A stretch of DNA of 64,000 nt. Origin: Chloroflexota bacterium (GTDB lineage Bacteria > Chloroflexota > UBA11872 > UBA12225). The stretch spans positions 12,926 through 76,925 of the forward strand of contig CANFGH010000004.1 of the NCBI GenBank assembly GCA_947446285.1. The letters are read 5' to 3'. Made by a program: the position numbers and the translations under genes. Shown piece after piece: positions 22,925 to 53,979 of the stretch; position 1 is the stretch's first letter, and the number at the start of each line of letters is the position of its first letter. Below the pieces are notes generated by a model. It worked only from the letters and a program-made list of their open reading frames with translations. It made no database searches and was not told the DNA's origin.

Positions 22925-23000
22925 GACGTGGCCCACCAGTCCAACCAACAAGGCTCCAGTCACGCACCATGAATTGCACACCGAAGGACGACCGTTCACA

Positions 23001-26000
23001 ATGACCAGCAAGACCACTCCAAACCAGCCAGCAAGTCACGAAGTTGAAAGTGCGCTGAATGACCCTTCCGGTGGCATTGGTGGCATCACCGCGCTGTCGA
23101 TCCGCAGGCCACTCTTGATGCTCATGGTCATCCTCTCGGTGATGATCTTTGGACTGATCGCCTACGGACGCCTAGGCGTTGACTTGTTTCCATCGGTGAA
23201 TTTCCCGGTGGTCAGTGTCAGCATCCCATATCCGGGTGCGAGCCCCGAGGTCGTTGAATCCCTTGTGACTCGACCGGTCGAGGACGCGGTGTCCGGCCTC
23301 GCAGACCTTGACACGATCAATTCGACGTCGTCAGAAGGCGTGGCGGTCGTGATCGTCACCTTCAAGGACAAGGCAGACCCTCAGACGGTCGCCATTGAGG
23401 TGGAAAAGCGGGTCAACGGAATTCGTGGCCAGCTACCCAATGACATCATTGCCCCCACAATCCTCAAATTCGACTTCACTGCCGCCCCCATCATCACTCT
23501 CGGACTGACGGGCGCCAACGTCACTCCTGCGCAGGCTTTCCGGATTGCAGATGAATTGGTGCGTCCGAAGCTGGAGACCACAAACGGTGTTGGTCAGGTC
23601 TCTATCTTTGGAGGCCAGCAGCGGGAAGTTCAGGTCAAGGTTGATCCAAATCGCCTTCGTGCCTACAACCTGACCCTCGCTCAGGTCTCCCAGGCACTTG
23701 GATCAGAAAACATCGACGCACCCGGTGGTCGCGTCGACGACGGCTCCCGGAACCTCAACATCCGCCTCGATGCAAGATTCCGCTCGGTCGATCAGATCAG
23801 GGATACGGTCGTACAGGCTTTGCCTACAGGCGGCACCATCCGGGTGCGTGACCTTGCTGAGGTGATCGACGGATACAAGGAACAGACCTTCCTGGCCCGC
23901 GTCAATGGGAGCCCCGGCGTCGGTATTTCCGTCTCAAAGCAATCGTCCTCAAACGTGACCCAAACAGCCGCCAACGTGCGGGCAACCCTGGCAAAAATAC
24001 GGACGACCCTCCCTGAGGGCGTCCAACTCATCGGTATTCAGGACCAGTCCGAATTCATCCAGACTTCCCTGGCTGGTGTTCAGCGAACCCTGCTGGAAGC
24101 GAACATCCTTACCGGTCTTGTCCTCCTTGCATTTCTTCATTCGTGGAGGAGCACACTGATCGTCCTGTTGGCGATCCCGACCTCGCTCATCGCCACGTTC
24201 GCCTTCATGTATTTGCAGGGGTTTACATTAAACTTCCTGACAACTCTTGCCTTGACGCTCACGGTCGGCATCCTCGTCGACGACAGTATCGTCGTGCTGG
24301 AAAACATCTTCCAGTTCCTCAAGCGCGGTGACTCCCCTCGAGTTGCCGCCGTACGGGGTCGCGCGGAAATTGGTCTCGCGGCCATCGCGATCACCTTGGT
24401 GGACGTCGTCGTCTTCGCTCCGGTAGGCCTTCTTTCGGGCCAGATCGGGCAGTTCTTCCGTCAGTTCGGGTTCACCGTTGTCGCCGCGACCCTCGCATCG
24501 CTCGCGGTCAGTTTCACACTCACTCCCTTGCTTGCGTCCCGCTGGCTTACATCGGAAGACGAACACGGAACCGGACCGCTCGCAATCTTCGGTCGCTGGT
24601 GGGACCGAGGCTTCGATCGACTCGAAGATCGGTACCGCGGGATCCTTCGCTGGTCACTCAGCCACCGTTGGGTCATCATGTTGGTGGCTGTCCTGTCATT
24701 TGCCGGGAGCATTGCCCTGCCGGCTGCAGGTCTGGTGAAGACCAGCTTCTTCCCGAACCAGGATCAGGGCACGTTCAATATCATTCTCGAACTCCCCCCG
24801 GGATCCACCCTTGACGCTACCGCGTCTGCGGTTGCTCAAATGGAAGCAGGGATCACCAAACTTCCCGAGTTCAAGGCCATCTATTCGGTCATCGGCCAAG
24901 GGGAAGGCGGAACGTCCCGCCAGTCTCGATTTGCAAATCTCCAAGTCATCCTCGTCGGGAAGCGCGAACGCACCAAATCAGTCGAACAGCTGGCACGGGA
25001 AGTCAAGGCTTTCGGTGAAGGTTTCCCCGGCCTGAAGGTTCGCGCAGGTGTTCCAGGGCCTGGAGGAGGCGCCGCGCAGCCGGTTAGCCTTCGTGTGTAT
25101 GGCGACGATCTCAAGGTCCTCAACGATCTGGCCGATAAGATCATCGGCAAGTTCCGCGAGACTGGTGGTCTCGTCGACATCACCAACAGCGGTCAAGCGG
25201 GTGCCCCGGAATACGTTGTCACGCTTGACCGGGCAAAGGCCGCTGATCTCGGTCTGTCCGCTGGCCAAGTGGCCCAGACGCTGAGGACCGCGTACGCCGG
25301 TTCTGTGGCCACAACCCTGCGTCGCGACCAGACTTCCGGAACCGCGAGTGGAGTTGACGTTCGTGTCCAGCTGACGGACGACACTCGAAAGGACATCACC
25401 CTTCTCCAGCAGGTGCCCCTCATTAGCCCTGCAAAGGGTGGCCAAGTTTACCTCGGCCAAATTGCGACCGTCGTTCCAGCTGCCGGTCCATCGCAGATCC
25501 AGCGCACCGACCGGCAGCGCGCGCTCACGATCGGTGCCAACCTCGGTGCAGGCCTGATCCTGAGTGATGTGACGAAACGGGTCAATGAAGCAATCGCTTC
25601 CGTTGAAGTTCCAGCAGGCTACCGGATCAAGATCGGCGGACAGGCTGACCAGCAGAACAACACGTTTACTGAATTCGGCAACGCGCTTCTCCTCTCGATC
25701 GCCCTTGTCTACATCCTCCTTGTAGCCCTCTACGAGTCTCTCCTCTATCCGCTGATCGTCATCGCGGCGCTGCCACTTGCCCTTGTCGGGGCAATGGGAG
25801 GGCTGGCCCTCGGACAAGAGACCCTGAATACCTTTTCGCTTATCGGGATCATCGCCCTCGTCGGCCTCGTTGGCAAGAACTCGATCCTTGTGATCGACTA
25901 CACCAACACTCTCCGGCGGGAGCAAGGGATGGGTAGATTTGACGCGCTCATGGAAGCGGGGCCACGACGGCTTCGTCCGATCCTCATGACCTCATCAGCA

Positions 26001-41505: not shown

Positions 41506-42579
41506 TCAGAGCGGGAGGCGAACTTCGGAACCGCTGATGGTCGACTCGCGAATGGCCTTGATGAACTCGATCGAGCGGCGACCTTCCTCGCCCGTCACGA
41601 GTGGGTCGCGTCCTTCGCGGATTGCCGCCAGAAAATCCTGCAGCTGCCACTTGTGGCAGATCGGGAAGGGAGAGAAGTGGTCCTCCTTGGCTTCCCGCGC
41701 CCGTGCCAGTTCCGAAGCTGCCGAAGCTTCCTCGCCTGGGATTGTCCAGATATCGTTGACGCCCATCCGACTCTCCGGGTCCTCAAGCACCGATATCGTT
41801 GCGCCAGTCTCTCCGGTAATCGTAATCCGGGATCCAAGAGTGGGCGTCGTCGAGATTGACACCGACGCAACCCCCAAGGCGCCGTTCTCCCAACGCAGTG
41901 CAGCCACCGCAGTGTCTTCACATTCAATATAAGGATGCGTCAGGTTCGCCCATTTGCCGTAGACGGATGTACATGGCCCGGCCGCTGACATGAGCCAGAG
42001 GTACATGTCGATCCCGTGGACCGCTTGGTTCACCAACGCCGCACCGTTTTCGCCCTTCCACGTGCCACGCCACGGGGCATCGCGGTAATACGACTCATCT
42101 CGGTGCCACTTGAACATGAAGTCACCGCTGATCGGACGCCCGATCTTTCCCGCCTTGATGGCTTCGTGTGCCCGGAGGGCCGCCGGCCAGAACCTGCGCA
42201 TGAAGATGACCCCGAACCGGACATTTGCCTTGCGGGTCGCCTCAATTGCGCGGTCTGCCTCCGCCAAATCCATCGTCATCGGCTTCTCGACAATGGTGTG
42301 CTTCCCTATGGCAGTTGCCATGAGGGTTGCAGGCAGGTGGAAAGGCGGGTTCGTGCACACCGCGATTGCCTCGATGCCCGGGTGGTCGATCACCGCACGC
42401 GCATCGGTGTAGTGGTTCGGGATCCCATGATCCCGCGCCAGCGTGGCTGCCTTCTCCCCATCAAGGTCGGCACACGCGATCAATTCGCACTCGCCCTCGG
42501 CCTCGAGTGACTTCAATGCCATCGCGTGAAACCGAGCGATGTTTCCGCACCCGATGATCCCAATACCTATCCGTCGCAT
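41506..42579 (-). CDS. Gfo/Idh/MocA-family oxidoreductase
   Basis: N-terminal MRRIGIGIIGCGNIARFH and the motif EKPM. Confidence 0.85.
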   Translation of the reverse strand: MRRIGIGIIGCGNIARFHAMALKSLEAEGECELIACADLDGEKAATLARDHGIPNHYTDARAVIDHPGIEAIAVCTNPPFHLPATLMATAIGKHTIVEKPMTMDLAEADRAIEATRKANVRFGVIFMRRFWPAALRAHEAIKAGKIGRPISGDFMFKWHRDESYYRDAPWRGTWKGENGAALVNQAVHGIDMYLWLMSAAGPCTSVYGKWANLTHPYIECEDTAVAALRWENGALGVASVSISTTPTLGSRITITGETGATISVLEDPESRMGVNDIWTIPGEEASAASELARAREAKEDHFSPFPICHKWQLQDFLAAIREGRDPLVTGEEGRRSIEFIKAIRESTISGSEVRLPL

Positions 42580-42734
42580 CGTCCCGCCATTCCTTCCATG
42601 CCGCTCCAACCATGGTCCTGCACAACTCTCTTGAACCCAAGAGGTATGAGGTTCCCGGTCGATTTCGTGCGATCATAGGGGCGTTCGGCCGCATACGTCG
42701 GTCAACGTCACTCACCACGAGGAGTGCTCCGGGC

Positions 42735-43100
42735 GTGGACAGTTATTCGATCACCTATACGCCGGTCATCGCGGCCACATTCCTGGGCATCGGGTTCATT
42801 TCCCTAACCCTCTTGATTGCCAATCTCCTCGCACCACGGGTACGCACCCGAGGCAAGGAGAGCATCTACGAGTGCGGGTCGCCGACCATCGGACAGGGAT
42901 GGAGCCAGATGAACCTGCGCTACTATCTTTATGCGATTCTCTTCCTGATCTTTGAGATCGAGTCGGTATTTCTCTTCCCTTGGACGGTGGTTTACAAGGG
43001 GCTCGGCCCCTTCGCGTTCTGGGAGATGATGCTTTTCATGTCCATGCTGCTATTCGGTCTGGTCTATGCCTGGCGCAAGGGAGTACTGACGTGGGAGTAA
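42735..43100 (+). CDS. nuoA: NADH-quinone oxidoreductase subunit A
   Basis: The segment YECGSP...[25 protein letters not shown] start with GAGGAG upstream is preferred over the track start at 42612. Confidence 0.85.
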
Positions 43101-43732
43101 ACCTAGGGGCACCGACACCGTTTGCGACGGCTTACGCGAACGCAACCGCCCCTGACCTGCCATTAAATGACGGCGCGGCCGGAATGCTTCCGGCGGAGAA
43201 CCTCTATGCACGTCTGCCCCAAGGCATCGTGACAACGAGCGTCGACCAGCTGTTCCAGTGGGCACGCAAGAGCAGCCTGTGGCCGATGACCTTCGGTCTC
43301 GCCTGTTGCGCGATCGAGATGATCTCGACCTTCATGGCCAAACACGACCTTGACCGTTTCGGCCTGATCGGTCAGGTTGGCGCGACGCCGAGGCAGTCAG
43401 ACTTGATGATCGTCTCCGGCACCGTGACGACCAAGATGGCCCCCGCGGTCCGAGTTCTCTGGGAGCAGATGCCAGAACCCAAGTGGGTCATCTCGATGGG
43501 TGGATGCGCCACCTGCGGCGGGCCGTACTACCGGTATCCCACCGTGGTGCAAGGTGTTGACCAGGTTATTCCGGTAGATGTCTACATCGGTGGATGCCCA
43601 CCTCGGCCGGAAGCACTGATGCACGGCATCCTGAAACTTCAGGAAAAGATCATGCGACAGGCAAAGGAAGGTCGTCGTCCGACAGCGGATCTAGAGCTCG
43701 TCTTGGCCGGCGAGGGCGTCGAGGTCGCGTAG
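43091..43732 (+). CDS. nuoB: NADH-quinone oxidoreductase subunit B
   Basis: Motifs include [25 protein letters not shown] and GCPPRPE. The GTG start overlaps the end of nuoA. Confidence 0.9.
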
Positions 43733-43816
43733 GCGGTGGCGATCCGCAGGGATGACCCGGGCGTGCCTCGTGGTGCATCGTGACGTTACGCACGAACTCA
43801 GGAAGGCGAAGCACAC

Positions 43817-44722
43817 GTGAGCACCGAAGGCGGGGCCGCCGGGGCGGCAATATCTCTACGCGCAACCCTTGCGAACTCCAAGTGGTTGGGCACTGCATGC
43901 CCCAAATGCAGCGAAGGGTTTGCGGTTGCCGACCAGGTAGTCCTGTGCCCGTCATGTTTCTCAGCGCACCACGCTGCTTGCTGGCGAGAGAACGGGAATA
44001 CGTGCGCCAAGGACCAGACGCCTGGTCGCATCATCGAGCCCCGTGGGCGCGGTGCCTCGCCCGCATCTGAGGCTCCCGCTCCGGTTCAGGCTCCAGCTTC
44101 GGCTGGGCCAGTCGCAGCACTCGCAGCAGTTGCACGACCCGCCGCTCCGGCCAAGCCTGCTGCACCCGCCGCCCCGGTGAAGGGTGCCGGCCCCGCAGTG
44201 CGCGACGCCAAGGGCCTCCGTCCGATCGATGGTGTGCGTGCTCGAATTCAATCAGCGACGAATGACCTTGCGCCCGTCTTTGGCACCGCCATCGACGAAG
44301 TTACCGTGACCGTTCCACCTGAAAATCTTCCCGAAGCGGCACGCAGGCTGAAGGAAACCGACGGGCTGAAGTTCGATTACCTGAGATGCCTGAGCGGCGT
44401 TGATTACCAGTCAGACGGCATCGAGGTGGTCTACCACTTGTTCAGCACCCGGCTGGCACAGAAGTGCGTTCTCAAAACCCGTTTGGCAGCCGAGGGCGAC
44501 GCCGTTGGGACGGTTACCACGGTCTGGGCAGGTGCCGACTGGCACGAACGAGAAACCGCCGAAATGTTCAACATCCGGTTTGAGGGGCACCCATACCCCG
44601 AACCACTTCTTTTGGAACGCGATGACCAAGGCACCATCGTTCCCGGACCGGTTCTTCTTAAGCGCTTCAAGTTGCGCCCCAAGGAACCGCCCGCTCAGTA
44701 TGGCTTTCCCGAGCAAGAGTAG
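43817..44722 (+). CDS. nuoC: NADH-quinone oxidoreductase subunit C with an N-terminal zinc-finger (prokaryotic RING-like) domain and a Pro/Ala linker
   Basis: The C-terminal ~160 aa are canonical NuoC (FDYLRCLSGVDY...WHERETAEMFNIRFEGHP). The N-terminus has CPKC-x12-CPSC-x3-HH-x2-CW-x7-C. Confidence 0.85.
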   Translation: MSTEGGAAGAAISLRATLANSKWLGTACPKCSEGFAVADQVVLCPSCFSAHHAACWRENGNTCAKDQTPGRIIEPRGRGASPASEAPAPVQAPASAGPVAALAAVARPAAPAKPAAPAAPVKGAGPAVRDAKGLRPIDGVRARIQSATNDLAPVFGTAIDEVTVTVPPENLPEAARRLKETDGLKFDYLRCLSGVDYQSDGIEVVYHLFSTRLAQKCVLKTRLAAEGDAVGTVTTVWAGADWHERETAEMFNIRFEGHPYPEPLLLERDDQGTIVPGPVLLKRFKLRPKEPPAQYGFPEQE

Positions 44723-44731
44723 GAGTTCGCC

Positions 44732-45904
44732 ATGGCCATTGCAACTTCCATCGACATGCTTCGCGAACCTGTGCCCTCGGTGGCTGAGGAGCGCAATCTC
44801 GAAACGGTCGAGATGACGATCAACATGGGGCCACAGCATCCCAGCACGCACGGTGTGTTTCGGATGGTCCTGACCCTTGAGGGTGAACGCGTTAAGAACG
44901 TGCAGTCACACATCGGGTACCTGCACCGGGGCGCCGAGAAACTCGGTGAATCTGGCGATCTCGAGGGCTACCGCAAGGCGATGATCACCCTCGACCGCAC
45001 GGACTATCTCTCGTCATTGCTCAATGAGCATGCGTATGTGATGGCGGTTGAAAAACTGGCGGGTATCAGCGTGCCGGAACGCGCTGAGTACATCCGCGTC
45101 ATTCTGGGTGAAATCACCCGGATAAACTCGCATTGCATGTTCTACGGCGCATTCGGTGCCGACGCCGGTGCCACGACGCCCTATATGTATGCGTTTGCGT
45201 TGCGTGAAGAAATCCAGCAACTGTTCGAGGCGGTCGGTGGCGCACGGATGTTTCCGAACTACTACCGCGCCGGAGGCCTGCGCGAGGATGTTCCCCAGGA
45301 CTTCGTTCGCCGGGTCCAGGCGATCGTTGACCGGGCCCTATACGCCTTCGATGACTTTGACAACCTGATCACCGCCAACGAGATCTTCCTGTCGCGGACC
45401 CGGGGCTTGGGCATCCTTGATCAGACTCGTGCCCTTGACCTCGGTGTATCTGGCCCGTTGCTTCGTGCGACCGGACTCCCATACGACGTGCGAAGGTCCG
45501 AACCCTATTCGATTTACGATCGCTTCGCCTTCGACGTGCCCATCGGCACGACCGGAGACTGCTACGAGCGGTACCTCATTCGCCTAGAAGAGATGCGCCA
45601 GTCAATCCGTATCATTGAACAGGCGCTCAAGGATCTGCCCGCCGGCCCGACCATGGGCAACGCCCCCAAGGCACTGCGTCCCCCGAAAGGCGAGGCGTAT
45701 GTCCGCATCGAGAACTCCCGAGGCGACTTCGGCGTCTACTTGGTGTCGGATGGGAAGTCGAGTGCGCCATACCGGGTGAAGTACCGTTCCCCCTGCTTCG
45801 TAAACCTTCAATCACTCAACGACATGGTGATCGGAACCTACATCGCCGATGCCGTCGTCGCGCTTGGGTCGATTGATATCGTCCTCGGCGAGGTTGACCG
45901 CTAG
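44732..45904 (+). CDS. nuoD: NADH-quinone oxidoreductase subunit D
   Basis: Motifs include NMGPQHPSTHGVFR and IGYLHRG. The protein is 390 aa. Confidence 0.95.
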   Translation: MAIATSIDMLREPVPSVAEERNLETVEMTINMGPQHPSTHGVFRMVLTLEGERVKNVQSHIGYLHRGAEKLGESGDLEGYRKAMITLDRTDYLSSLLNEHAYVMAVEKLAGISVPERAEYIRVILGEITRINSHCMFYGAFGADAGATTPYMYAFALREEIQQLFEAVGGARMFPNYYRAGGLREDVPQDFVRRVQAIVDRALYAFDDFDNLITANEIFLSRTRGLGILDQTRALDLGVSGPLLRATGLPYDVRRSEPYSIYDRFAFDVPIGTTGDCYERYLIRLEEMRQSIRIIEQALKDLPAGPTMGNAPKALRPPKGEAYVRIENSRGDFGVYLVSDGKSSAPYRVKYRSPCFVNLQSLNDMVIGTYIADAVVALGSIDIVLGEVDR

Positions 45905-45963
45905 CCCGTCTCCCGGCCATTCACTGTGCGATCAGCTCAGCCCAGACACCGAGGTTCAGACAT

Positions 45964-47205
45964 ATGACTAACAATGCCGCGTCGGAGTTGACGCTTCAGG
46001 CCGTTCCTTCATGGATGCCGGCATTTCTCGTCGCTCCGATGATCGGGGGACTCAGCCTCGCCGACCTCATTGCGCTGGTCGTCCTGCTGCTCTTCGTCCT
46101 CAACTTCGTCATGATCGAAATCTGGATGGAGCGCAAGGTTGCGGGGCATATCCAGCTCCGTCGCGGACCGCTGCACGTCGGCCCACACGGGTCACTGCAA
46201 AGCCCGGCCGACGTCCTGAAACTGCTCACCAAGGAAGACCTCACTCCAGTCGCTGCGGATCCAATCGTCTTCCCAATGGCTCCCTACCTCGTCTTCGTGC
46301 CCGTCTTCCTGACCTTCCTGGTCATCCCTTGGGGTCCACTCGTCCTCTTCGGGAATTTCGTGATCCGACCGTTCGACCTCGGACTGGTCTACATGGTTGC
46401 GATCCCCGCTATGCAAGGGATCGGGCTGGTAATGGCCGGCTGGTCCTCTGGGAACAAGTATTCGCTGCTTGGCTCGGCCCGGGTGGTCGCCCAGCTCATC
46501 TCCTACGAACTTCCGATGGTGATTGCCCTGCTTGGCGTTGCGATGATGGCGGAGAGCCTGAACCTCACCACAATTGTGGAATCCCAAATGAAGCAGGGAT
46601 GGAATGTCTTCCTGCAGCCAATCGGCTTCCTAGTCTTCTTCCTCGCCACGATGTCAGAAATGAGTCGTGCCCCGTTCGACATTGCCGTGGCTGAGTCGGA
46701 AATCGTGGGCGGCCCGTTTGTCGAGTACAGCGGCATGCGTTGGGGCATGTTCTATCTCGCTGAGTTCGCCGCCGTCTGCCTCAACTCGGCACTTTCGACC
46801 GCCCTCTTCCTCGGAGGATGGGAACTGTTTCCCGGATCGCGTGCCCTCGGTCTTGGGTGGATCTCCGATCAGTTCGGGCTTCTGTTCTTCATGGGGAAGA
46901 TGATCGTCCTCGTCCTGATCATCCAGTGGGCCCGTTTCGCGCTTCCCCGTCTCCGCATTGACCAACTCATGGACTTCGCATGGAAGTTCCTTCTTCCGGC
47001 AGGCTTCGTGAACTTCATCCTCACCGCAATCCTGCAGGTATTCGGCTTTGTGCCGTTTGCCATCGGGATCGGCTTGACCCTCGCATTCGCCGCCGTGTTG
47101 CTTGCGACGTATCAGGCACGACGAAGCCCTTCCACCGTTGCGCTCATCCGGACAGCAGCAGCCGCCGCCGTGCCGACCAGCCAGGGCGTCGGCCTTCCAG
47201 TCTGA
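45964..47205 (+). CDS. nuoH: NADH-quinone oxidoreductase subunit H
   Basis: Motifs include ERKVAGHIQLRRGP, GWSSGNKYSLLG and FDIAVAESEIVGG. Confidence 0.95.
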   Translation: MTNNAASELTLQAVPSWMPAFLVAPMIGGLSLADLIALVVLLLFVLNFVMIEIWMERKVAGHIQLRRGPLHVGPHGSLQSPADVLKLLTKEDLTPVAADPIVFPMAPYLVFVPVFLTFLVIPWGPLVLFGNFVIRPFDLGLVYMVAIPAMQGIGLVMAGWSSGNKYSLLGSARVVAQLISYELPMVIALLGVAMMAESLNLTTIVESQMKQGWNVFLQPIGFLVFFLATMSEMSRAPFDIAVAESEIVGGPFVEYSGMRWGMFYLAEFAAVCLNSALSTALFLGGWELFPGSRALGLGWISDQFGLLFFMGKMIVLVLIIQWARFALPRLRIDQLMDFAWKFLLPAGFVNFILTAILQVFGFVPFAIGIGLTLAFAAVLLATYQARRSPSTVALIRTAAAAAVPTSQGVGLPV

Positions 47206-47238
47206 CCTCCTGACGCTGACCCACAAAGGATTTGACCG

Positions 47239-47730
47239 ATGCGTGGCGTTCTCGGTGGCTTCTTGCAGACACTGAAGTCATTCCTGACCAAACCAGTAAC
47301 CCGCCTGTATCCATATGAAAAGCCACCTCTCGAAGCGCGGTTCATGGGTGCACCTTCCCTCCTTTGGGACGATGCGGTAGACGAGGTCGTCTGTGTTGCA
47401 TGCAATATCTGTGCGCGTTCTTGCCCGGACGACTGCATCACGCTTACCGGAGACAAGTACACGGACGGCAAGACCAACAAGAAGAACATCATCAAGGACT
47501 ATTTCATCGACCTTGGCCGATGCTCTTACTGCGGCATCTGCGTGGAGGTGTGTCCATTCGATGCCAACGAAATGTCCCCGCACTTCGAACTGAGTACCTA
47601 CGACCGCATGACCTTGGTCTACGACAAGGACCAGCTGATCGAGATTGGTAGGGGTGTGACCCGTCGCACCGGCAAGCCGGAACCAGTGGGGCCGCTCCCG
47701 GGGATCCTCGATCCATCCACCTATCGCTAG
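47239..47730 (+). CDS. nuoI: NADH-quinone oxidoreductase subunit I (2x[4Fe-4S])
   Basis: The two cluster motifs are CVACNICARSCP and CSYCGICVEVCP. Confidence 0.95.
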   Translation: MRGVLGGFLQTLKSFLTKPVTRLYPYEKPPLEARFMGAPSLLWDDAVDEVVCVACNICARSCPDDCITLTGDKYTDGKTNKKNIIKDYFIDLGRCSYCGICVEVCPFDANEMSPHFELSTYDRMTLVYDKDQLIEIGRGVTRRTGKPEPVGPLPGILDPSTYR

Positions 47731-47833
47731 TCACAAATCGGTTCGCCCGGACCGTCGAAATCGGGTGTCGGGTGTAGCATCAACGCTTGCACGCGCGAGC
47801 TAATGGATGCGGCATCGTGTCATTGGAGAAGCC

Positions 47834-48352
47834 ATGGAACTGAGCGCGCTCGCCTTCTACGTCGTTGCCGGGGTCACCCTCGTTGCAGCGCTTGGCGTGG
47901 TTGTCGCGCGCAGCGTCGTCTACGCCGCTCTCCTGCTGATCCTGTCACTCGTCATGACTGGCCTCATTTACCTTCTTCTGCTCGCAGACTTCCTCGCCCT
48001 CATCCAAATCCTTGTGTACGGCGGAACAGTGAGCATCCTTCTCCTGTTTGCCCTGATGTTGACGCCACCTGAGACACGCCCGGAACTCAACCATCGGGGA
48101 TGGGCGCTTGGTGCCGTCGCTTCGGGTGCGCTGTTCGTCCTCTTGCTTGTTGCATCACTTGCCGACAAGTGGCCTGCAGCCGGGGGAACGCGTCACATCA
48201 GCCTCGTCGACCTGGGTCGTGCACTCTTCTCGACGTGGGCGGTCCCCTTCGAAGTGGCATCGGTAGTCTTGCTCGTTGCGCTTCTCGGCGCGCTGACCAT
48301 CGCGCGCAGCACCACACCTGGCAGCAAAATCGCCCCCCGTGCTTCGGCATGA
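47834..48352 (+). CDS. nuoJ: NADH-quinone oxidoreductase subunit J
   Basis: The segment FLALIQILVYGGTVSILLLFALML. The ATG at 47834 has GGAGA upstream. Confidence 0.85.
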   Translation: MELSALAFYVVAGVTLVAALGVVVARSVVYAALLLILSLVMTGLIYLLLLADFLALIQILVYGGTVSILLLFALMLTPPETRPELNHRGWALGAVASGALFVLLLVASLADKWPAAGGTRHISLVDLGRALFSTWAVPFEVASVVLLVALLGALTIARSTTPGSKIAPRASA

Positions 48353-48373
48353 TGATCGTCTGAGGCGAAACGA

Positions 48374-48682
48374 ATGGTTCCCATCGAACACATCATGGTT
48401 TTCACCGGCGCCCTGTTCTGCATTGGCGTCTACGGTGTCATGGCTCGCAGGAACGCCGTGCTGGTGCTCATGGCGATCGAACTCATGCTCAACGCCGTTG
48501 CCATCAACTTGGTGGCTTTCGGCACGCTGGTCTATCCCGGGCAAATCAATGGCATGGTGTTTGCGATCTTCGTCGTGACCATCGCCGCTGCCGAACTCGG
48601 GCTCGGTCTTGCAATCGTCCTGCGGGTGTACCGGATGCGTTCAAGCATCAATGTTGACGATATCGATTTGATGAGGTGGTAG
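48374..48682 (+). CDS. nuoK: NADH-quinone oxidoreductase subunit K
   Basis: 102 aa with three TM helices and the segment IELMLNAVAIN. Confidence 0.9.
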   Translation: MVPIEHIMVFTGALFCIGVYGVMARRNAVLVLMAIELMLNAVAINLVAFGTLVYPGQINGMVFAIFVVTIAAAELGLGLAIVLRVYRMRSSINVDDIDLMRW

Positions 48683-48685
48683 CTC

Positions 48686-50695
48686 GTGGACTACGCGTGG
48701 CTCGCGCCCGTGCTGCCGATCGGTGCCTTTGCGCTCAACGTGCTGATCTGGCGACAGATGGGCGCCAGAAAGCATGCCCTGTCGGCTCTGACAACACTCG
48801 CCGCCATCGGTGGCGCGTTCCTGGTTTTTCTCGCCGTCTTCTCAGATGCGTCAGCGCACCTTGAAGAAACCGCAACGAGCAGTGGCCGACATCTGATCTT
48901 CGAGGGTGCGCCGTGGTTCACGGTGGGCATCTCGCCACACCTCTATGTCTTCGCGCCAACATTGGTGGTCGACTGGCTGTCGATCATGATGCTTGGCGTC
49001 GTCACATTCCTTGCATTCCTGATCGAGTTCTACGCAACGGGCTACATGAAGGGAGACAACCGCTACTGGTGGTTCTTCTCCGTCAAGGCCCTCTTCACCG
49101 CAGCAATGCTCGGTGTTGTCCTTTCATACAACTTCCTGCTGATGTACATCTGTTGGGAGCTCGTCGGCCTCTGTTCGTTCCTCCTGATCGGTTTCTGGTA
49201 CTCGGAACGGGCAAACGCCGAGGCTGCCAAAAAGGCATTCATCACCACCCGCGTCGGTGACGTTGGGTTCTTCATCGGCCTCGCCCTGCTATTTCTCAAG
49301 ACTGGTACCTTCGACATGAAGGCGACGTTCGCCGCCGTCGAATCCGGCGCGATCGACCCTGCCACCGTCACGATTGCCGGCATCCTGATTTTTCTCGGGG
49401 CGATGGGCAAGAGTGGACAGTTCCCCCTGCATGTCTGGTTGCCTGACGCCATGGCCGGCCCGACGCCGGTCTCTGCACTCGTTCATTCGGCAACCATGGT
49501 CGCGGCGGGTGTCTATCTAGTCGGTCGTGCATATCCGATCTTCCATGCGTCGTCAACGACGATGGGAGTGATCACCACCATCGGAACCATCACGGCCATT
49601 TTCGCGGCAACGATCGCGCTGACCCAACGCGATATCAAGCGCATCCTTGCCTACTCGACCATCAGCCAACTCGGATACATGATCATGGCCTTGGGTGTCG
49701 GTGCCTACACCGCGGGCCTTTTCCACCTGTTCACTCATGCCTTCTTCAAGGCCCTACTGTTCCTTGGTGCCGGATCAGTCATCCACTCCATGGAACCCGT
49801 CCTGCACGGGACCGGGCGCAACCCAAATGACATCTTCAACATGGGTGGCCTTCGCAAGCAGATGCCCGTGACGTTCTGGACCTTCCTGCTGGCTTCACTT
49901 TCCCTGGCGGGCATCGCGCCTCTCGCTGGCTTCTGGAGCAAGGACGCCATCCTCGTCGGCGCCTATGAAGCCGAAGCCTGGTTGCCTTTGTTCGTTGCAC
50001 TGCTTACGGCGTTCCTGACCGCCTTCTACATGTTCCGGTGCATCTATCTGGTGTTCTTCGGACCGGCCAAGTGGCAGGTCGCGACGGCAGCAGGCGACCA
50101 CCATGACAACCGTTCGACTGACCACGTCACGGGTCACCATGCAGTGCCCCACGAAAGCCCGTGGACGATGTCACTTCCACTTGTGGTGATATGCGTGCCC
50201 GCGATTGCAGCCGGGTGGATCGGTATTCCCGGATTTTCTGAGGGCTTCGCCGAGACCGTCCGGTTCGGTCCAGTGATCGAGGAACACATCAATCTGGTCC
50301 TTGCCGGGGCCGGAACGCTTGCCGGGGTGCTCGGCATCGGTCTCGCAACATTGATGTACCTCACGCCCGTATCCGGACCTCGCCTCATCTCGGAGAGTTT
50401 CCCGTCCGCCTACAAGACCCTCTACAACAAATACTACTTTGATGAGATGTACCAGTGGATCATCGACCATATTGTGCTTGCGATTGCCTCACTGGCTGCG
50501 ACAGTCGATCGGAAGATCCTTAACGATCGCATCGTTGACTGGTGCGGGCCATTCCTGCAGGGCGCGGGCGCCCGCCTGCGCCTCACCACCTCCGGCTACA
50601 TCTATCACTACGCGTTCGGCTTCATTGTCGGCATCATGGCCATTGGTGTGGTCATGTCGGGCGGTATCCCGGACATGCGGTTCGCACTCTGGTAG
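48686..50695 (+). CDS. nuoL: NADH-quinone oxidoreductase subunit L
   Basis: Antiporter-like motifs GKSGQFPLHVWLPDAMAGPTPVSALVHSATMV. The protein is 669 aa with a C-terminal lateral-helix region. Confidence 0.95.
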   Translation: MDYAWLAPVLPIGAFALNVLIWRQMGARKHALSALTTLAAIGGAFLVFLAVFSDASAHLEETATSSGRHLIFEGAPWFTVGISPHLYVFAPTLVVDWLSIMMLGVVTFLAFLIEFYATGYMKGDNRYWWFFSVKALFTAAMLGVVLSYNFLLMYICWELVGLCSFLLIGFWYSERANAEAAKKAFITTRVGDVGFFIGLALLFLKTGTFDMKATFAAVESGAIDPATVTIAGILIFLGAMGKSGQFPLHVWLPDAMAGPTPVSALVHSATMVAAGVYLVGRAYPIFHASSTTMGVITTIGTITAIFAATIALTQRDIKRILAYSTISQLGYMIMALGVGAYTAGLFHLFTHAFFKALLFLGAGSVIHSMEPVLHGTGRNPNDIFNMGGLRKQMPVTFWTFLLASLSLAGIAPLAGFWSKDAILVGAYEAEAWLPLFVALLTAFLTAFYMFRCIYLVFFGPAKWQVATAAGDHHDNRSTDHVTGHHAVPHESPWTMSLPLVVICVPAIAAGWIGIPGFSEGFAETVRFGPVIEEHINLVLAGAGTLAGVLGIGLATLMYLTPVSGPRLISESFPSAYKTLYNKYYFDEMYQWIIDHIVLAIASLAATVDRKILNDRIVDWCGPFLQGAGARLRLTTSGYIYHYAFGFIVGIMAIGVVMSGGIPDMRFALW

Positions 50696-50769
50696 GAACC
50701 CGCCACCTCGAGTTGTCGGTCACCAACGTAATCTGAAACCATCAATCGCTACCTGTAAGGACAAGCTCA

Positions 50770-52242
50770 GTGGGCTACCTGTCGACGATGACCCTCGCGC
50801 CGTTCATAGCGGCGCTCATCATCATGCTGATACCGAGTCAACGGCCGGGTCTGACCCGTGCGGTGGCGCTCGTAGCCAGCGTCATATCGTTCGGGTTGTC
50901 CCTTGTGGTCTTCGCCGGGTACGACTGGCATCGGGCCGGGTTCCAGTTCCGCGAGGCTTACCAGTGGCTTCCGGACTACGGGATAACGATCAGCCTTGGC
51001 GTCGACGGCATCTCAGCTCCTCTGATCATTCTCAATGCCGTGGTCCTTCTGACCGGCACGATCGTCTCATTCAAGATCGCTGACCGCCCGAAGGAGTTCT
51101 ACGCGCTCTTCCTGGTGTCGGTGGCCGGGGTCTTCGGCGTCTTCGCTTCCCTCGACCTTTTCATCCTATTCCTCACCTATGACATCGCCGGCCTTCCGAT
51201 GTACCCGCTGATCGTGATCTGGGGCAGTACCCGCAAGAATTACGCCGCACTCAAGCTCACCCTCATGCACGTCTCCGGAAGCCTGTTCATATGGGTGGGC
51301 ATGATTGCCATCTACGTCCAGGCCGGTGCGAAATCCTTCGATCTTGAGTACCTCGCTTCCCAGGCACATTCCCTTCTCACACCGGGCTTCCAGACCATCT
51401 TCTTTCCCGTCATCTTCATCGGGTTCGGCTTCCTCGCCGCGATGTGGCCACTTCACACGTGGTCGCCCGATGGTCATGGTGCGGCGCCAACCGCAGTCTC
51501 GATGGTGGCTGCTGGAGTGTTGATGAAGCTCGGCGCCTACGGATGCATCCGTGTCGGCGTCTGGCTCCTGCCTGAAGGTGCGATGGTGTGGTCTCCGGTC
51601 TTTGTGACCCTCGGGACAATCGGTGCCGTATACGGTGGCGTCATGGCAATCGCGCAACGTGACTTCAAGTTCGTGATCGCCCATTCATCGGTCAGCCACA
51701 TGGGATACGTGATCGTAGGCATCTCAACGATGTCACTGGTCGGCTTGAATGGCGCGGTCTTGCAAATGGTCAGCCATGGCCTCATGACTGCCCTCTTCTT
51801 CGCAATGATCGGTGCCATGTATGACCAAGCACACACGCGCGAAGTTGGCATCTTTGGCGGGTTGGCCAAAAACATGCCCTGGTACACCGGGTTCTTCACC
51901 ATTGCATGCCTCGCGTCACTTGGCCTGCCAGGGTTGTCGGGGTTCGTTCCTGAACTACTCATCTTCCTGGGGGCCTTCCAGACATATCCAATGGTGGGCA
52001 TCCTTTGTGTTGCGACCGTCGCACTGGCGGCCACCTACATGCTCCGGTTGGTGGCTCGTGCATTCTTCGGACCACTCAGTCCTCGCTGGGCGTCACTCCA
52101 TGACCTCCTTCCAAACGAGTGGTTCGTGGGTGCTTTCCTTGTGATGACACTGATCATCGTCGGCGTCTATCCCACCCCGTTCCTCGACATGATCAACGCC
52201 TCAGCCGCACCAGTAATTGAGCGCGTGGGAGGGATACGTTGA
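50770..52242 (+). CDS. nuoM: NADH-quinone oxidoreductase subunit M
   Basis: Motifs include WPLHTWSPDGHGAAPTAVSMVAAGVLMKLG and IAHSSVSHMG. Confidence 0.95.
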   Translation: MGYLSTMTLAPFIAALIIMLIPSQRPGLTRAVALVASVISFGLSLVVFAGYDWHRAGFQFREAYQWLPDYGITISLGVDGISAPLIILNAVVLLTGTIVSFKIADRPKEFYALFLVSVAGVFGVFASLDLFILFLTYDIAGLPMYPLIVIWGSTRKNYAALKLTLMHVSGSLFIWVGMIAIYVQAGAKSFDLEYLASQAHSLLTPGFQTIFFPVIFIGFGFLAAMWPLHTWSPDGHGAAPTAVSMVAAGVLMKLGAYGCIRVGVWLLPEGAMVWSPVFVTLGTIGAVYGGVMAIAQRDFKFVIAHSSVSHMGYVIVGISTMSLVGLNGAVLQMVSHGLMTALFFAMIGAMYDQAHTREVGIFGGLAKNMPWYTGFFTIACLASLGLPGLSGFVPELLIFLGAFQTYPMVGILCVATVALAATYMLRLVARAFFGPLSPRWASLHDLLPNEWFVGAFLVMTLIIVGVYPTPFLDMINASAAPVIERVGGIR

Positions 52243-52275
52243 TCTCGGTACGAGCCGGCACCAAGAGGTTTTCCG

Positions 52276-53979
52276 ATGCCCAACTTTGATCCAGCGACGC
52301 TCGATTACGTCCTGCTCGCCCCCCAGTTCATCGTCACCGGCCTGATTTTCGTGTGCCTCACGCTTGACCTCATGGTCTCCGGGCGAGGGCACCGGTTCAT
52401 CGGGTGGGTCGCAATCCTGGGCCTCGGGATAGGCATAGGCGCACAGGCATCGCTGTGGGGTGTCCGCAGCTCGTTCGCAGGCGTGCTCCGCGTCGACGAC
52501 TACTCGAACCTGTTCAACATCATCTTCATGGCGGCTGGCATGGGAGTCGTCTTCCTGTCGTTCGACTACGCCGAGCGGTTCTTCACGCAACCTGGCGAGT
52601 TCTACGCGTTCCTTGTGGCCGGGGTTCTCGGCATGGGACTGATGGCCCAAGCCCAGGAGCTGCTAACCGCGTACATCGCGCTGGAACTGCTGAGCTTTTC
52701 CAGTTACGTGCTCGTGTCGTACGCCAAGACCAACTTGAAGAGCAACGAAGCGGGATTGAAGTACATCATCCTCGGATCGTTCAGCTCGGCAATCCTCCTC
52801 TACGGAGTGAGCCTCCTGTTCGGCGCCGTTGGCTCCACCATGTTTACCGACATCAGGACAGCGCTCGGCACCTCGGTTGCCACGAGCGCCGTAGCCCAGA
52901 TTGCGCTTCTGATGATCACCGCCGGCTTGGCGTTCAAGGTCGCGGCCGTCCCCTTCCACATGTATTCACCGGATGTCTATGAGGGGGCACCAACCCCGAT
53001 TACCGCATACCTGTCAGTTGCCTCCAAGGCCGCTGGGTTTGCCCTCACCATGCGGTTCGTCGTCATGGCCCTTTGGCCAGTGCGTGGCCCCGTATCCGAC
53101 GTGATCGCCTTCCTTGCCGTCCTCACAATGACGCTTGGCAATGTGGTCGCTCTCCGACAGACAAACATCAAGCGTCTGATGGCGTACTCAAGCATTGCCC
53201 AGGCCGGCTACGCACTGATCGGGGTGGCAGCGTTCTTTGCCGCAGGTGAAATCGCCGAGCAGGCTTCCCGGGGCGTGATCCTGCAACTCATTGGCTACCT
53301 GTTCACCACGCTGGCAGCGTTCGGTGGGATTATCGCCTTCCAAGTGGTTGCCGATGGAAGAGAGAACATCTCAGACTTGGCAGGCTTGTCTCGGCGGTCG
53401 CCATTCGCCGCGTTTGCCATCATGTCCGCGCTGTTCAGCCTTGCCGGCATGCCCATCTTTTCGGGGTTCATGACGAAACTCTTCCTGTTCGCACCCGTGG
53501 CCCGCGCGGGCCTCCTTTGGCTGGTGGCAATCGCCGTACTCAACAGCACCATTTCCCTGTACTACTACTTGCAGGTCCTCCGCGTGATGTACTCAGAGTC
53601 ACCTGCGGGTGTCACCGCACTCAATGCTTCCGCCGTGGCAGCTATCAAGGCGGCGGCTATCCACTACGAAGTACCGGTACTCGTCGGTGCTGCAGTCGCT
53701 CCTGGGTCCGGACACGCATCGGACAGCCACGGAACGGCTCATGGAAGCCGTGGTGCCGAAGCGCATACCGAGGTGGCGCCGTCACCCGTCGGACCGTGGT
53801 GGCGACGACGTCTCACCGATGGCATGGAACCCGAACTGCGTTTCCCGATCGATCCGATTTCCGTTGAGCTCGGGATCGGGATCACGCTTGCGCTTGCCGG
53901 CATCTTTGCATTGGGGCTGTATCCAGCCCCGTTTGTAGACCTTGCGTATGACGCCAGCATGGCCCTCTTCGCCAAGTAG
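52276..53979 (+). CDS. nuoN: NADH-quinone oxidoreductase subunit N (with a ~90-aa insertion before the last TM helix)
   Basis: Motifs include PFHMYSPDVYEGAPTPITAYLSVASK and LMAYSSIAQAGY. The protein is 567 aa. Confidence 0.9.
   Translation: MPNFDPATLDYVLLAPQFIVTGLIFVCLTLDLMVSGRGHRFIGWVAILGLGIGIGAQASLWGVRSSFAGVLRVDDYSNLFNIIFMAAGMGVVFLSFDYAERFFTQPGEFYAFLVAGVLGMGLMAQAQELLTAYIALELLSFSSYVLVSYAKTNLKSNEAGLKYIILGSFSSAILLYGVSLLFGAVGSTMFTDIRTALGTSVATSAVAQIALLMITAGLAFKVAAVPFHMYSPDVYEGAPTPITAYLSVASKAAGFALTMRFVVMALWPVRGPVSDVIAFLAVLTMTLGNVVALRQTNIKRLMAYSSIAQAGYALIGVAAFFAAGEIAEQASRGVILQLIGYLFTTLAAFGGIIAFQVVADGRENISDLAGLSRRSPFAAFAIMSALFSLAGMPIFSGFMTKLFLFAPVARAGLLWLVAIAVLNSTISLYYYLQVLRVMYSESPAGVTALNASAVAAIKAAAIHYEVPVLVGAAVAPGSGHASDSHGTAHGSRGAEAHTEVAPSPVGPWWRRRLTDGMEPELRFPIDPISVELGIGITLALAGIFALGLYPAPFVDLAYDASMALFAK

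What the first reader, a model, noticed from the sequence alone, without database searches (positions are those of the whole stretch)
43817..44240. NuoC carries an N-terminal Cys4-His2-Cys zinc-finger (prokaryotic RING-like) domain plus a Pro/Ala-rich tether
About 140 aa precede the canonical NuoC fold. They consist of C28-P-K-C31 ... C44-P-S-C47-x3-H51-H52-x2-C55-W ... C63, followed by ASPASEAPAPVQAPASAGPVAALAAVARPAAPAKPAAPAAPVKG. The Cys/His spacing resembles the Prok-RING_1-type pattern (CxxC-x(n)-CPxC-x3-H-x3-CW). In an enzyme lacking NuoEFG, a tethered zinc or redox-Cys domain on the peripheral arm could dock an alternative electron donor or act as a regulatory or assembly handle. I know of NuoC-NuoD fusions but not of this architecture.
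Basis: partly seen in the sequence, partly recalled or inferred. Interest (0 to 1): 0.6.

Follow-up and report, generated by a model that had tools for sequence, protein, structure and literature searches.

The report
RING zinc finger tethered to NuoC
A complex I subunit (NuoC) of an uncultured Chloroflexota bacterium carries a real, conserved two-zinc RING-like domain on a floppy Pro/Ala tether, and relatives, including one genome bin that has both, put the same module on a cytochrome bc complex subunit, which points to a shared interaction handle on respiratory complexes rather than a redox cofactor.

Summary
ORF 43817..44722 (+, GTG, 301 aa) has three parts. Residues 8-78 are a Prok-RING_1 domain (PF14446, 38.7-42.2 bits against a cut-off of 29.1). 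Residues 79-130 are a disordered Ala/Pro linker. Residues 131-301 are a normal NuoC domain. The gene sits in a nuoABCDHIJKLMN operon with no nuoEFG.

The extension is translated. GTG 43817 is the only possible start, about 45 orthologues (47-94% identical) keep the architecture, and dN/dS of the RING region is about 0.12.

The ligand set is C28,C31,C44,C47,H52,C55,C63,D66. That is C4HC3-type with Asp, or Cys in one lineage, as the eighth ligand. H51 is not conserved. AlphaFold gives pLDDT 90-94 and the best PDB matches are RING-H2 domains. In 18 of 119 paralogous modules, ligands 1, 2, 5 and 6 are lost together, which is the cross-brace signature.

The new point: the same module (about 60% identical) is fused to subunit IV of a b6-type menaquinol:cytochrome c reductase and to small tail-anchored membrane proteins. 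One MAG carries both the NuoC and the subunit IV fusions.

I read the domain as a cytoplasmic, tethered protein-interaction handle shared by respiratory complexes. The partner is unknown. A dedicated electron-donor dock is less likely. The architecture is a new variant of a known kind and I found no description of it in the literature searched.

The parts
43800..43806 (+). Shine-Dalgarno-like AGGAAGG, with a 10-nt spacer before the start codon
   Evidence: Read directly from the sequence.
43817..43819 (+). GTG start codon of the RING-nuoC gene
   Evidence: It is the first start codon after an in-frame TGA 11 codons upstream, with no other start between. Orthologues start within a few residues of it.
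43838..44050 (+). RING-like binuclear zinc module, residues 8-78. It comprises a pre-RING strand (AAISLRxT..SKWLG), the ligands C28,C31,C44,C47,H52,C55,C63,D66, and a post-RING strand (RIIE).
   Evidence: PF14446 scores 38.7-42.2 bits against GA 29.1. Invariant residues are T17 W23 C28 P29 C31 V42 C44 C47 H52 C55 W56 C63. AF2 gives pLDDT 90-94 in 10-residue blocks over residues 11-70. Foldseek's top hits are RING-H2 domains. dN/dS is 0.12.
44051..44206 (+). Ala/Pro-rich flexible linker, residues 79-130
   Evidence: pLDDT is below 50 for residues 78-124. The fraction of P+A is 59%. Linker length is 42-113 aa (median 56) across 44 orthologues. The sequence is poorly conserved.
44207..44722 (+). 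NuoC (30 kDa subunit) domain, residues 131-301, plus the stop codon. It ends in a conserved tail RPKEPPxxYGFPEEE.
   Evidence: PF00329 E 1.2e-29. TIGR01961 82.8 bits. PDB sequence and fold matches are to NuoC/NDUFS3 chains of complex I.
42735..43732 (+). nuoA (about 42735-43100) and nuoB (about 43091-43732) immediately upstream
   Evidence: Pfam Oxidored_q4 and Oxidored_q6. The starts are inferred from the 121-aa and 213-aa orthologues.
44732..53979 (+). nuoD, H, I, J, K, L, M and N downstream. No nuoE, F or G lies in the operon.
   Evidence: Pfam on each ORF. Relatives have the same gene order.

Best explanation
What it is (shown): nuoC of an 11-subunit complex-I-type operon encodes an extra N-terminal module. 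The module is a compact RING-like, cross-brace, two-metal (presumably zinc) domain of the Prok-RING_1 family. An intrinsically disordered Ala/Pro tether of about 50 residues joins it to a normal NuoC fold.

How it most likely works (inferred): the domain is not a redox cofactor. It is a structural protein-interaction handle that swings on its tether at the cytoplasmic face of the membrane. Relatives have put the same module, on the same kind of tether, on the cytoplasmic N-terminus of subunit IV of a b6-type menaquinol:cytochrome c reductase and on small tail-anchored membrane proteins. The handle therefore most likely recognises something common to these carriers. That could be another copy of the module (RING-RING contacts) or one shared partner. 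Either way it would organise, assemble or co-regulate the respiratory complexes, for example by keeping complex I and the bc complex together. It probably does not feed electrons into complex I. The partner is not identified.
For: Domain identity and translation:
- Pfam score above the cut-off.
- 26 aligned orthologues at 47-95% identity have invariant ligands.
- Against the 72%-identical orthologue, pN is 0.20-0.24 and pS about 0.7, giving dN/dS about 0.12 for the RING and 0.08 for NuoC.
- GTG 43817 is the only possible start.

Fold:
- AF2 pLDDT is 90-94 (10-residue block means, residues 11-70) for the RING, below 50 for the linker, and high for NuoC.
- The best PDB matches are the RING-H2 domains of RNF13, RNF38, RNF12 and RMR1: TM 0.55-0.6, rmsd about 2 A over 60 columns.

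Cross-brace pairing: of 119 distinct modules, 98 keep all eight ligands and 18 have lost exactly ligands 1, 2, 5 and 6 together while keeping 3, 4, 7 and 8.

Shared module:
- The nearest non-NuoC hits of the RING profile are RING + Cytochrom_B_C proteins.
- About 22 further clusters sit in cyt b6 / RING-subunit IV / Rieske / cytochrome c operons.
- Tail-anchored RING + linker + TM proteins also exist.
- MAG GCA_035699365.1 carries both RING-NuoC and RING-subunit IV, and their modules are 62% identical.

Exchange or concerted evolution:
- The RINGs of the divergent lineage, on NuoC and on subunit IV, resemble each other (47-48%) more than their counterparts elsewhere (33-42%).
- A degenerate subunit IV RING is 75% identical to a tail-anchored one.

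Constraint: all 36 NuoC-fused modules keep all eight ligands.

Topology (established knowledge of cytochrome b6f/bc and complex I): the N-terminus of subunit IV and NuoC are both on the cytoplasmic (n) side. In the tail-anchored forms an RR motif precedes the TM helix.
Against: - No interaction was tested. Neither RING-RING contact nor a common partner is shown.
- Co-occurrence in one genome is shown for a single metagenome bin only. I could not scan the window's own genome.
- RING modules cluster mostly by fusion partner, so each may have its own separate function.
- The tail-anchored paralogue lies next to aminotransferase and ABC-2 permease genes, not respiratory genes.
- The Foldseek E-values for the RING are weak (1e-2) and no relative has a solved structure.
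- Zinc binding is inferred, not measured.
Confidence: 0.45

Rival explanations
1. Electron-donor docking arm. The tethered RING captures a soluble donor (ferredoxin, flavodoxin or a dehydrogenase) and delivers it to the NuoI/NuoD surface that NuoEFG would otherwise cover.
For: - The operon lacks nuoEFG.
- The direct donor of 11-subunit complex-I-like enzymes is an open question (PMC11238625).
- Moparthi and Hagerhall suggested that NuoC extensions might contact partner proteins (PMC3144371).
- All NuoC-fused modules keep both metal sites.
- b6f-type complexes have been proposed to meet ferredoxin on the n side. This rests on my own knowledge and was not tested.
Against: - The same module sits on bc subunit IV and on tail-anchored proteins with no redox domain.
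- No donor gene is conserved next to the operon. Upstream neighbours differ between relatives.
- Nothing in the domain resembles a known ferredoxin-binding subunit.
Confidence: 0.15
2. E3-like or quality-control handle. The RING recruits a conjugation enzyme (a prokaryotic E2/Ubl system), or a protease or chaperone, to mark, assemble or degrade the membrane complexes that carry it.
For: - The fold is closest to eukaryotic RING-H2 E3 domains, several of them solved in complex with E2.
- Prokaryotic RINGs with a C4HC3 arrangement have been discussed as E3 analogues (PMC11354881).
- Related binuclear treble clefs in prokaryotes are linked to folding, stability and proteolysis of membrane proteins (PMC4506424 citing Burroughs et al. 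2011).
Against: - No E1, E2, Ubl or JAB domain appears among the 20 window ORFs scanned or in the relatives' flanks.
- Residues that typically contact E2 are not evident: a hydrophobic residue in the first loop, and Pro in the last C-P-x-C. Here the first loop is C-P-K-C and the last pair is C-A-x-D. This is my reading from general knowledge of RING-E2 contacts.
- Not all prokaryotic RINGs have ubiquitin-related roles (PMC4029887).
Confidence: 0.1
3. Intramolecular cap or switch. The RING folds back onto the exposed top of the Q-module, or onto the carrier complex generally. It regulates or protects that surface, possibly responding to zinc or to thiol oxidation.
For: - Seven of the eight ligands are Cys or His.
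- The tether is long enough to reach any part of the peripheral arm: 42-113 aa.
- NuoC-fused modules are under strict ligand conservation.
Against: - AF2 places no confident contact between the RING and NuoC: pTM is 0.51 and the linker is disordered.
- Modules that lost a whole metal site persist on other carriers, which is unlike a dedicated thiol switch.
- The same module would need different docking surfaces on unrelated carriers.
Confidence: 0.12
4. Membrane- or lipid-binding domain, like C1, FYVE or some PHD fingers, that pins the carrier's cytoplasmic part to the bilayer surface.
For: - Related multi-RING proteins also score against the C1_1 and PHD models.
- There are invariant Trp residues (W23, W56) and several conserved basic residues.
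- All verified carriers are membrane complexes or membrane-anchored.
Against: - The window domain's own matches to PHD, and to RING_2, are far below threshold.
- The carriers are already membrane-bound, so a lipid anchor adds little.
- No lipid-binding motif was identified.
Confidence: 0.08
5. Not a real protein feature. Translation would start near 44240, leaving an untranslated leader, or the fusion would be an assembly artefact.
For: - Some database entries call a 165-174 aa NuoC.
- One other apparent fusion of this module (to ribosomal L12) is a chimeric contig.
Against: - The short calls are start miscalls or frameshifted long-read contigs that still encode the RING.
- The fusion is present in dozens of independent assemblies, including a 4.28-Mb chromosome, always between nuoB and nuoD.
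- dN/dS is about 0.12.
- The ligands are invariant.
Confidence: 0.01

Closest known systems
Pfam PF14446, Prok-RING_1 (prokaryotic RING finger family 1; Burroughs, Iyer and Aravind 2011)
   Same: - The HMM match is above the gathering score.
- The ligand order is C4HC3-type.
- The predicted fold is a small cross-brace.
- Paralogues have the family's usual RING + transmembrane helix layout.
   Different: - Here the domain is fused to a soluble core subunit of complex I, and in relatives to bc subunit IV.
- The eighth ligand is usually Asp.
- There is a conserved extra N-terminal strand (AAISLRxT..SKW).
- No member of the family has a solved structure or a tested function.
Eukaryotic RING-H2 E3 ligase domains (RNF13, RNF38, RNF12, RMR1)
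   Same: They are the best structural matches of the AF2 model: TM 0.55-0.6, rmsd about 2 A over about 60 residues. Both have two metal sites in cross-brace order.
   Different: - Sequence identity is only 16-22% and the Foldseek E-values are weak.
- The ligand order is C4HC3(D), not C3H2C3.
- No E2 or Ubl partner is in sight.
- Ligase activity was not tested.
N-terminally extended NuoC of Bacillaceae 11-subunit complex I (Moparthi and Hagerhall 2011, PMC3144371)
   Same: It is an extra N-terminal region on NuoC in an enzyme lacking NuoEFG, and it was speculated to contact partner proteins.
   Different: The paper describes that extension only as peculiar and limited to Bacillaceae and reports no zinc finger in it; that it is long, low-complexity and lacks a RING is my recollection, not checked here. 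NCBIfam model PRK07735 (430 aa) matches the window protein only over the NuoC part.
Ala/Pro-rich swinging-arm linkers (lipoyl domains of 2-oxoacid dehydrogenase E2; hinge of ribosomal protein bL12)
   Same: A small folded domain on a flexible Ala/Pro tether of tens of residues. Linker length varies freely between orthologues.
   Different: The comparison is an analogy from general knowledge, not homology. The cargo here is a zinc finger with no known prosthetic group.

Membership tests
Prok-RING_1 (PF14446) | Sequence match to the family HMM above the curated gathering score | tested here: met
   38.7 bits on the whole protein and 42.2 bits on residues 1-78, against GA 29.1. The precomputed PF14446 label is present on about 35 orthologue clusters.
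Prok-RING_1 (PF14446) | Eight metal ligands in C4HC3 order, conserved across relatives | tested here: met
   C28,C31,C44,C47,H52,C55,C63 are invariant. Position 66 is D (91/119), C (7/119) or E (2/119). The C4HC3 order is reported for prokaryotic RINGs (PMC11354881).
Prok-RING_1 (PF14446) | Cross-brace binuclear fold (ligand pairs 1+3 and 2+4) | tested here: met
   The test is computational only. AF2 pLDDT is 90-94 and the top PDB matches are RING-H2 domains. Ligands 1, 2, 5 and 6 are lost together in 18 of 119 modules, with 3, 4, 7 and 8 kept.
Prok-RING_1 (PF14446) | Association with a transmembrane helix in the same protein (as the family is described in PMC4029887) | tested here: not met
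   The NuoC fusion has no TM helix. Paralogues P0058, P0060 and P0166 and loci L116-L121 do have one. Here membrane association comes through complex I.
Prok-RING_1 (PF14446) | Binds two zinc ions | not testable with these tools
   This needs metal analysis of the recombinant domain.
RING-type E3 ligase | Works with an E2 and Ubl system encoded in the genome or neighbourhood | tested here: not met
   No E1, E2, Ubl or JAB domain was found in the 20 window ORFs scanned or in the flanks of relatives. The whole genome was not available.
RING-type E3 ligase | E2-binding surface and ligase activity | not testable with these tools
   Only a qualitative reading of loop residues was possible.
NuoC / complex I 30 kDa subunit (PF00329, TIGR01961) | HMM match, position between nuoB and nuoD, and NuoC fold | tested here: met
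   PF00329 E 1.2e-29. Operon order confirmed. Foldseek and phmmer hit NuoC/NDUFS3 chains of solved complex I structures. TIGR01961 scores 82.8 bits, below its 122.45 cut-off, so this is a divergent member.
[quoted passage not shown] | Operon encodes A, B, C, D, H, I, J, K, L, M and N and no E, F or G | tested here: met
   Pfam on all eleven ORFs of the window. Relatives have the same order.
[quoted passage not shown] | No nuoEFG elsewhere in the genome | not tested
Rubredoxin-like or zinc-ribbon redox centre | Sequential CxxC pairs (1+2) form one metal site | tested here: not met
   The co-loss pattern pairs ligands 1,2 with 5,6 and 3,4 with 7,8. The zinc-ribbon Pfam models score far below threshold.

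The most novel reading that the evidence does not exclude
The RING modules tethered to complex I (NuoC) and to the menaquinol:cytochrome c reductase (subunit IV), perhaps with the tail-anchored RING proteins as hubs, bind one another or a common factor. That would form a zinc-dependent, flexible physical link between respiratory complexes. It would be a bacterial way of building or regulating a respiratory supercomplex through a RING-type domain, with no ubiquitin system involved.
Probability: 0.2. Interest if true: 0.8.

Novelty: new variant of a known kind. Interest (0 to 1): 0.62.

Why it matters
Complex I core subunits rarely carry extra folded domains. How the widespread 11-subunit, N-module-less enzymes are fed and organised is still open (PMC11238625, PMC3144371).

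A strictly conserved two-zinc RING-like domain on a swinging tether on NuoC gives a concrete, testable handle on the partners of such an enzyme. The same module on the bc complex, in the same genome bin in one case, adds to this. It also gives the uncharacterised Prok-RING_1 family its first link to defined, well-understood machines. If the modules connect the two complexes, this would be a new principle of respiratory-chain organisation in bacteria.

If the module turns out to be only a stabilising or assembly appendage, the finding remains a clean example of a lineage-specific mobile domain-plus-linker cassette spreading among membrane proteins.

Tried and rejected
1. Alternative start or untranslated leader: rejected.

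2. 'Close relatives lack the extension': rejected.
- P0019 (174 aa) is an internal-start call on a 97%-identical gene.
- P0034/L081 (165 aa) is a frameshifted long-read contig that encodes the RING in another frame.
- P0046 is likewise a short call.

3. RING fused to the ribosomal protein L12 C-terminal domain (P0165): rejected as a probable chimeric contig. L090 is 96-98% identical to the tail-anchored RING locus L117 up to the Ala/Pro linker and then switches to L12.

4. A second RING gene in the window: none found by tblastn.

5. The RING-profile search in the word-indexed protein database returned almost only contig-end fragments. The exhaustive representative search was the informative one.

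6. Burroughs et al. 2011 (PMC5938088) is not held. Statements about the family rest on papers that cite it.

7. The long NuoC homologues (340-430 aa) from Dehalococcoidia, HR24 and Streptomyces have C-terminal repeat extensions, not N-terminal ones. They are not comparable.

8. Gene neighbourhood of the tail-anchored paralogue (aminotransferase, ABC-2 permeases, FAD oxidoreductase): no functional clue.

9. A second same-assembly co-occurrence, attempted via P0317, P0450 and P0001: no shared accession found.

10. Rfam on the window: no hits.

11. Lineage assignment: the sample labels and a 2018 paper hint at freshwater Chloroflexota such as 'Ca. Limnocylindria'. I could not confirm this.

12. 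Sequence search of the PDB with the RING profile: nothing significant.
Full report
**1. What is in the sequence**

The ORF 43817..44722 on the + strand encodes 301 aa from a GTG codon. An in-frame TGA lies 11 codons upstream and no ATG, GTG or TTG lies between it and 43817, so this GTG is the only start that can produce the conserved N-terminus. AGGAAGG sits at 43800-43806, 10 nt before it.

Pfam finds two domains:
- Prok-RING_1 (PF14446) at residues 25-66. It scores 38.7 bits on the whole protein and 42.2 bits on residues 1-78, against a gathering score of 29.1.
- Complex1_30kDa (PF00329) at residues 164-272, E 1.2e-29.

NCBIfam sees only NuoC-type models, over residues 140-273. The gene lies in a nuoA-B-C-D-H-I-J-K-L-M-N operon (42735..53979) with no nuoE, F or G. 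Every ORF of the operon was confirmed by Pfam.

**2. The extension is a translated, selected part of NuoC**

A search of 5.8 billion proteins found about 35 clusters with the same PF14446 + PF00329 architecture. All are from Chloroflexota metagenome-assembled genomes, at 47-94% identity. With cluster members there are 45 RING-NuoC proteins in the set.

In an alignment of 26 of them, T17, W23, C28, P29, C31, V42, C44, C47, H52, C55, W56 and C63 are invariant. H51 varies (H or Q). D66 is about 90% conserved and is Cys in the most divergent lineage.

Against the 72%-identical orthologue (L084), synonymous sites are saturated (pS about 0.7) while pN is 0.20-0.24 in the N-terminal 78 residues. This gives dN/dS about 0.12 there, against 0.08 in the NuoC domain.

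In every relative examined the gene lies between nuoB and nuoD. This includes a 4.28-Mb chromosome-level MAG (L001, OZ241866.1), where its GTG overlaps the nuoB stop codon.

Database entries of 165-174 aa are artefacts. P0019 is an internal-start call. L081 is a frameshifted long-read contig that still encodes the RING upstream in another frame.

**3. Anatomy**

AlphaFold2 with the orthologue alignment gives three regions:
- a compact N-terminal domain (10-residue block means of pLDDT 87-97 over residues 11-70 in the full-length model, 90-94 in the separate model of residues 1-79);
- a disordered stretch (residues 78-124, pLDDT below 50);
- a confident NuoC fold from about residue 131.

In the small domain, an N-terminal strand (residues 10-16, the conserved AAISLRxT) and a C-terminal strand (69-73, RIIE) are predicted on either side of the zinc knuckles and a short helix (53-58).

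The best PDB matches of the small domain are RING-H2 domains of RNF13, RNF38, RNF12 and RMR1, with TM 0.55-0.6 and rmsd about 2 A over about 60 columns. Their E-values are only about 1e-2. No solved structure is detectably related by sequence. The NuoC part matches NuoC/NDUFS3 chains of solved complex I structures.

The linker is 54 aa here and 59% Ala+Pro. It ranges from 42 to 113 aa (median 56) in 44 orthologues, with little sequence conservation.

**4. Ligand pairing**

The eight ligand positions were read in 119 distinct modules aligned to the profile:

| Pattern (positions 28,31,44,47,52,55,63,66) | Modules |
|---|---|
| CCCCHCCD | 91 |
| Cys at position 66 (CCCCHCCC 5, CCCDHCCC 2) | 7 |
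| CCCCHCCE | 2 |
| CCCRHCCD | 1 |
| Ligands 1, 2, 5, 6 lost together; 3, 4, 7, 8 kept | 18 |

Ligands 1, 2, 5 and 6 are positions 28, 31, 52 and 55. Ligands 3, 4, 7 and 8 are positions 44, 47, 63 and 66. This all-or-none loss is what a cross-brace predicts (site 1 = pairs 1+3, site 2 = pairs 2+4). It argues against a rubredoxin-like pairing of consecutive CxxC motifs.

The order C4-H-C3 is the one reported for prokaryotic RING domains (PMC11354881). All 36 NuoC-fused modules keep all eight ligands. The domain is therefore best described as a structural binuclear RING-like finger. Metal identity (zinc) is inferred.

**5. The same module on other carriers**

An exhaustive HMM search with the module profile against 1.84 billion representatives gave 2988 hits at E up to 1e-3 and 67 at E up to 1e-10. 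The closest non-NuoC hits are of two kinds.

(a) RING + Ala/Pro linker + Cytochrom_B_C proteins (P0163, P0168).
- A follow-up search found about 22 further clusters of these in Chloroflexota, some named 'menaquinol-cytochrome c reductase cytochrome b/c subunit' or 'RING finger protein'.
- They are always encoded in an operon of cytochrome b6-like, RING-subunit IV, Rieske and c-type cytochrome genes.
- The membrane part carries the WPHLL...PWYF motifs that I read as the helix E/ef-loop region.
- From the established topology of b6f/bc complexes, its N-terminus, and hence the RING, is on the cytoplasmic side.

(b) RING + Ala/Pro linker + conserved DPYRYA..WRRNIMT motif + one C-terminal TM helix. 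These are tail-anchored proteins (P0058, P0060, P0166; loci L116-L121).
- Some have only the second metal site left (P0076, P0088, P0091, P0167).

One metagenome bin, GCA_035699365.1, carries both RING-NuoC (contig 870) and RING-subunit IV (contig 502). Their modules are 62% identical.

In a neighbour-joining tree the modules group mostly by carrier, with two exceptions:
- The divergent lineage's NuoC and subunit IV modules group together (47-48% identity to each other, against 33-42% to other modules).
- A degenerate subunit IV module (P0312) is 75% identical to a tail-anchored one (P0076).

These exceptions indicate cassette exchange or concerted evolution.

More distant family members are multi-RING proteins and fusions to WD40, ankyrin, SH3 or DUF2628 domains. 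That is typical of an interaction module. An apparent fusion to the ribosomal L12 C-terminal domain (P0165) is most likely a chimeric contig joined at the Ala/Pro tract. I discount it.

**6. Mechanism**

Shown:
- A conserved, translated, RING-like two-site finger is tethered to NuoC by a disordered linker.
- The same module is tethered to a bc-complex subunit and to tail-anchored proteins in the same lineage.
- All carriers place the module at the cytoplasmic membrane surface.

Inferred: the module is a protein-interaction handle with a target common to these carriers, either another module or a shared factor. Its role would be organisation, assembly or co-regulation of respiratory complexes. 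I give this about 0.45.

The rivals:
- *Donor-docking arm* (about 0.15). It does not explain the module on subunit IV or on tail-anchored proteins, and no donor gene is conserved nearby.
- *E3-like or quality-control role* (about 0.10). The fold suggests it. However, no E1, E2, Ubl or JAB gene is seen in the window or in relatives' flanks, and prokaryotic RINGs are not all ubiquitin-related.
- *Fold-back cap or redox/zinc switch* (about 0.12).
- *Lipid-binding role* (about 0.08).
- *Artefact* is excluded.

**7. Comparison with what is known**

By every sequence-level test the domain is a member of Prok-RING_1. It lacks the TM helix usual for that family. In its place it is attached to a membrane complex.

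Extra regions on NuoC in 11-subunit enzymes have been noted before. The Bacillaceae extension (PMC3144371) is one such region; the paper describes no zinc finger in it, and that it is low-complexity is my recollection rather than a result obtained here.

Full-text searches for PF14446/Prok-RING, and for NuoC with zinc finger or N-terminal extension, found no description of this architecture or of a RING on a bc-complex subunit. The library is incomplete, and the primary paper on prokaryotic RINGs was not available. The fusion is already visible in precomputed Pfam labels of public proteins, so it is unreported rather than undetectable.

**8. Verdict**

- Observation: confirmed, with small corrections (H52 rather than H51; an eighth ligand at D66; the extension is about 130 aa).
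- Interpretation: partly supported.
- Novelty: a new variant of a known kind.
- Interest: moderate to high (0.62). This rests mainly on the module being shared between complex I and the bc complex, which makes partner hunting for an N-module-less complex I directly testable.

Noticed in passing
window 22974..28637 (+): A single 1887-aa ORF joins an AcrB-type RND transporter (ACR_tran, residues 39-1057, 886 bits) to a HlyD-type membrane-fusion protein (Biotin_lipoyl_2 near residue 1179; HlyD_D23 and HlyD_3 at residues 1673-1803). This is an RND pump and its periplasmic adaptor in one polypeptide.
   Followed up: no
L088, L101-L112 (relatives; not in the window): Operon of cytochrome b6-like, RING-subunit IV, Rieske and c-type cytochrome genes in Chloroflexota. 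Subunit IV carries the same RING + Ala/Pro linker at its N-terminus, and P0163 carries two RINGs in tandem. In every locus whose flank extends that far, a PspA/IM30 gene follows on the opposite strand.
   Followed up: partly
L116-L124, L082, L083 (relatives): Small tail-anchored proteins: RING + Ala/Pro linker + conserved DPYRYA..WRRNIMT motif + one TM helix. They lie downstream of an aminotransferase gene and two ABC-2 permease genes. Several have lost exactly metal site 1.
   Followed up: partly
L090 2627..3094 (P0165): An apparent RING + ribosomal L12 C-terminal domain protein. The contig is 96-98% identical to the tail-anchored RING locus L117 up to the Ala/Pro linker and then switches. 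It is probably a chimeric assembly at a low-complexity tract.
   Followed up: yes
Linkers of P0010-P0024 (NuoC), P0058, P0172 and fragments; absent from window 44051..44206: A conserved short motif P(T/S)S.TP..PTPS.DT lies inside the otherwise variable linker. It occurs in 11 of 45 RING-NuoC proteins and in 7 other RING proteins, but in none of the subunit IV fusions. It may be a modification or binding site.
   Followed up: partly
window 44660..44719 (NuoC residues about 282-301): The C-terminal tail RPKEPPxxYGFPEEE is conserved in most of the clade, with low pLDDT. The divergent lineage (P0036, P0037, P0043) keeps only RPPEPP and ends differently. In Thermus the NuoC C-terminal loop contacts NuoG (stated in PMC3144371), which is absent here, so the conserved acidic tail may have another partner.
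   Followed up: no
L081 4476..6533: A long-read metagenome contig has frameshifts in nuoB and in the nuoC linker. They merge or split the gene calls. This is the source of the '165-aa NuoC' entries in protein databases.
   Followed up: yes
window 41506..42609 (-): A GFO/IDH/MocA-family oxidoreductase gene diverges from nuoA. The same neighbour is present in the 72%-identical relatives (L084, L085) but not in more distant ones.
   Followed up: no
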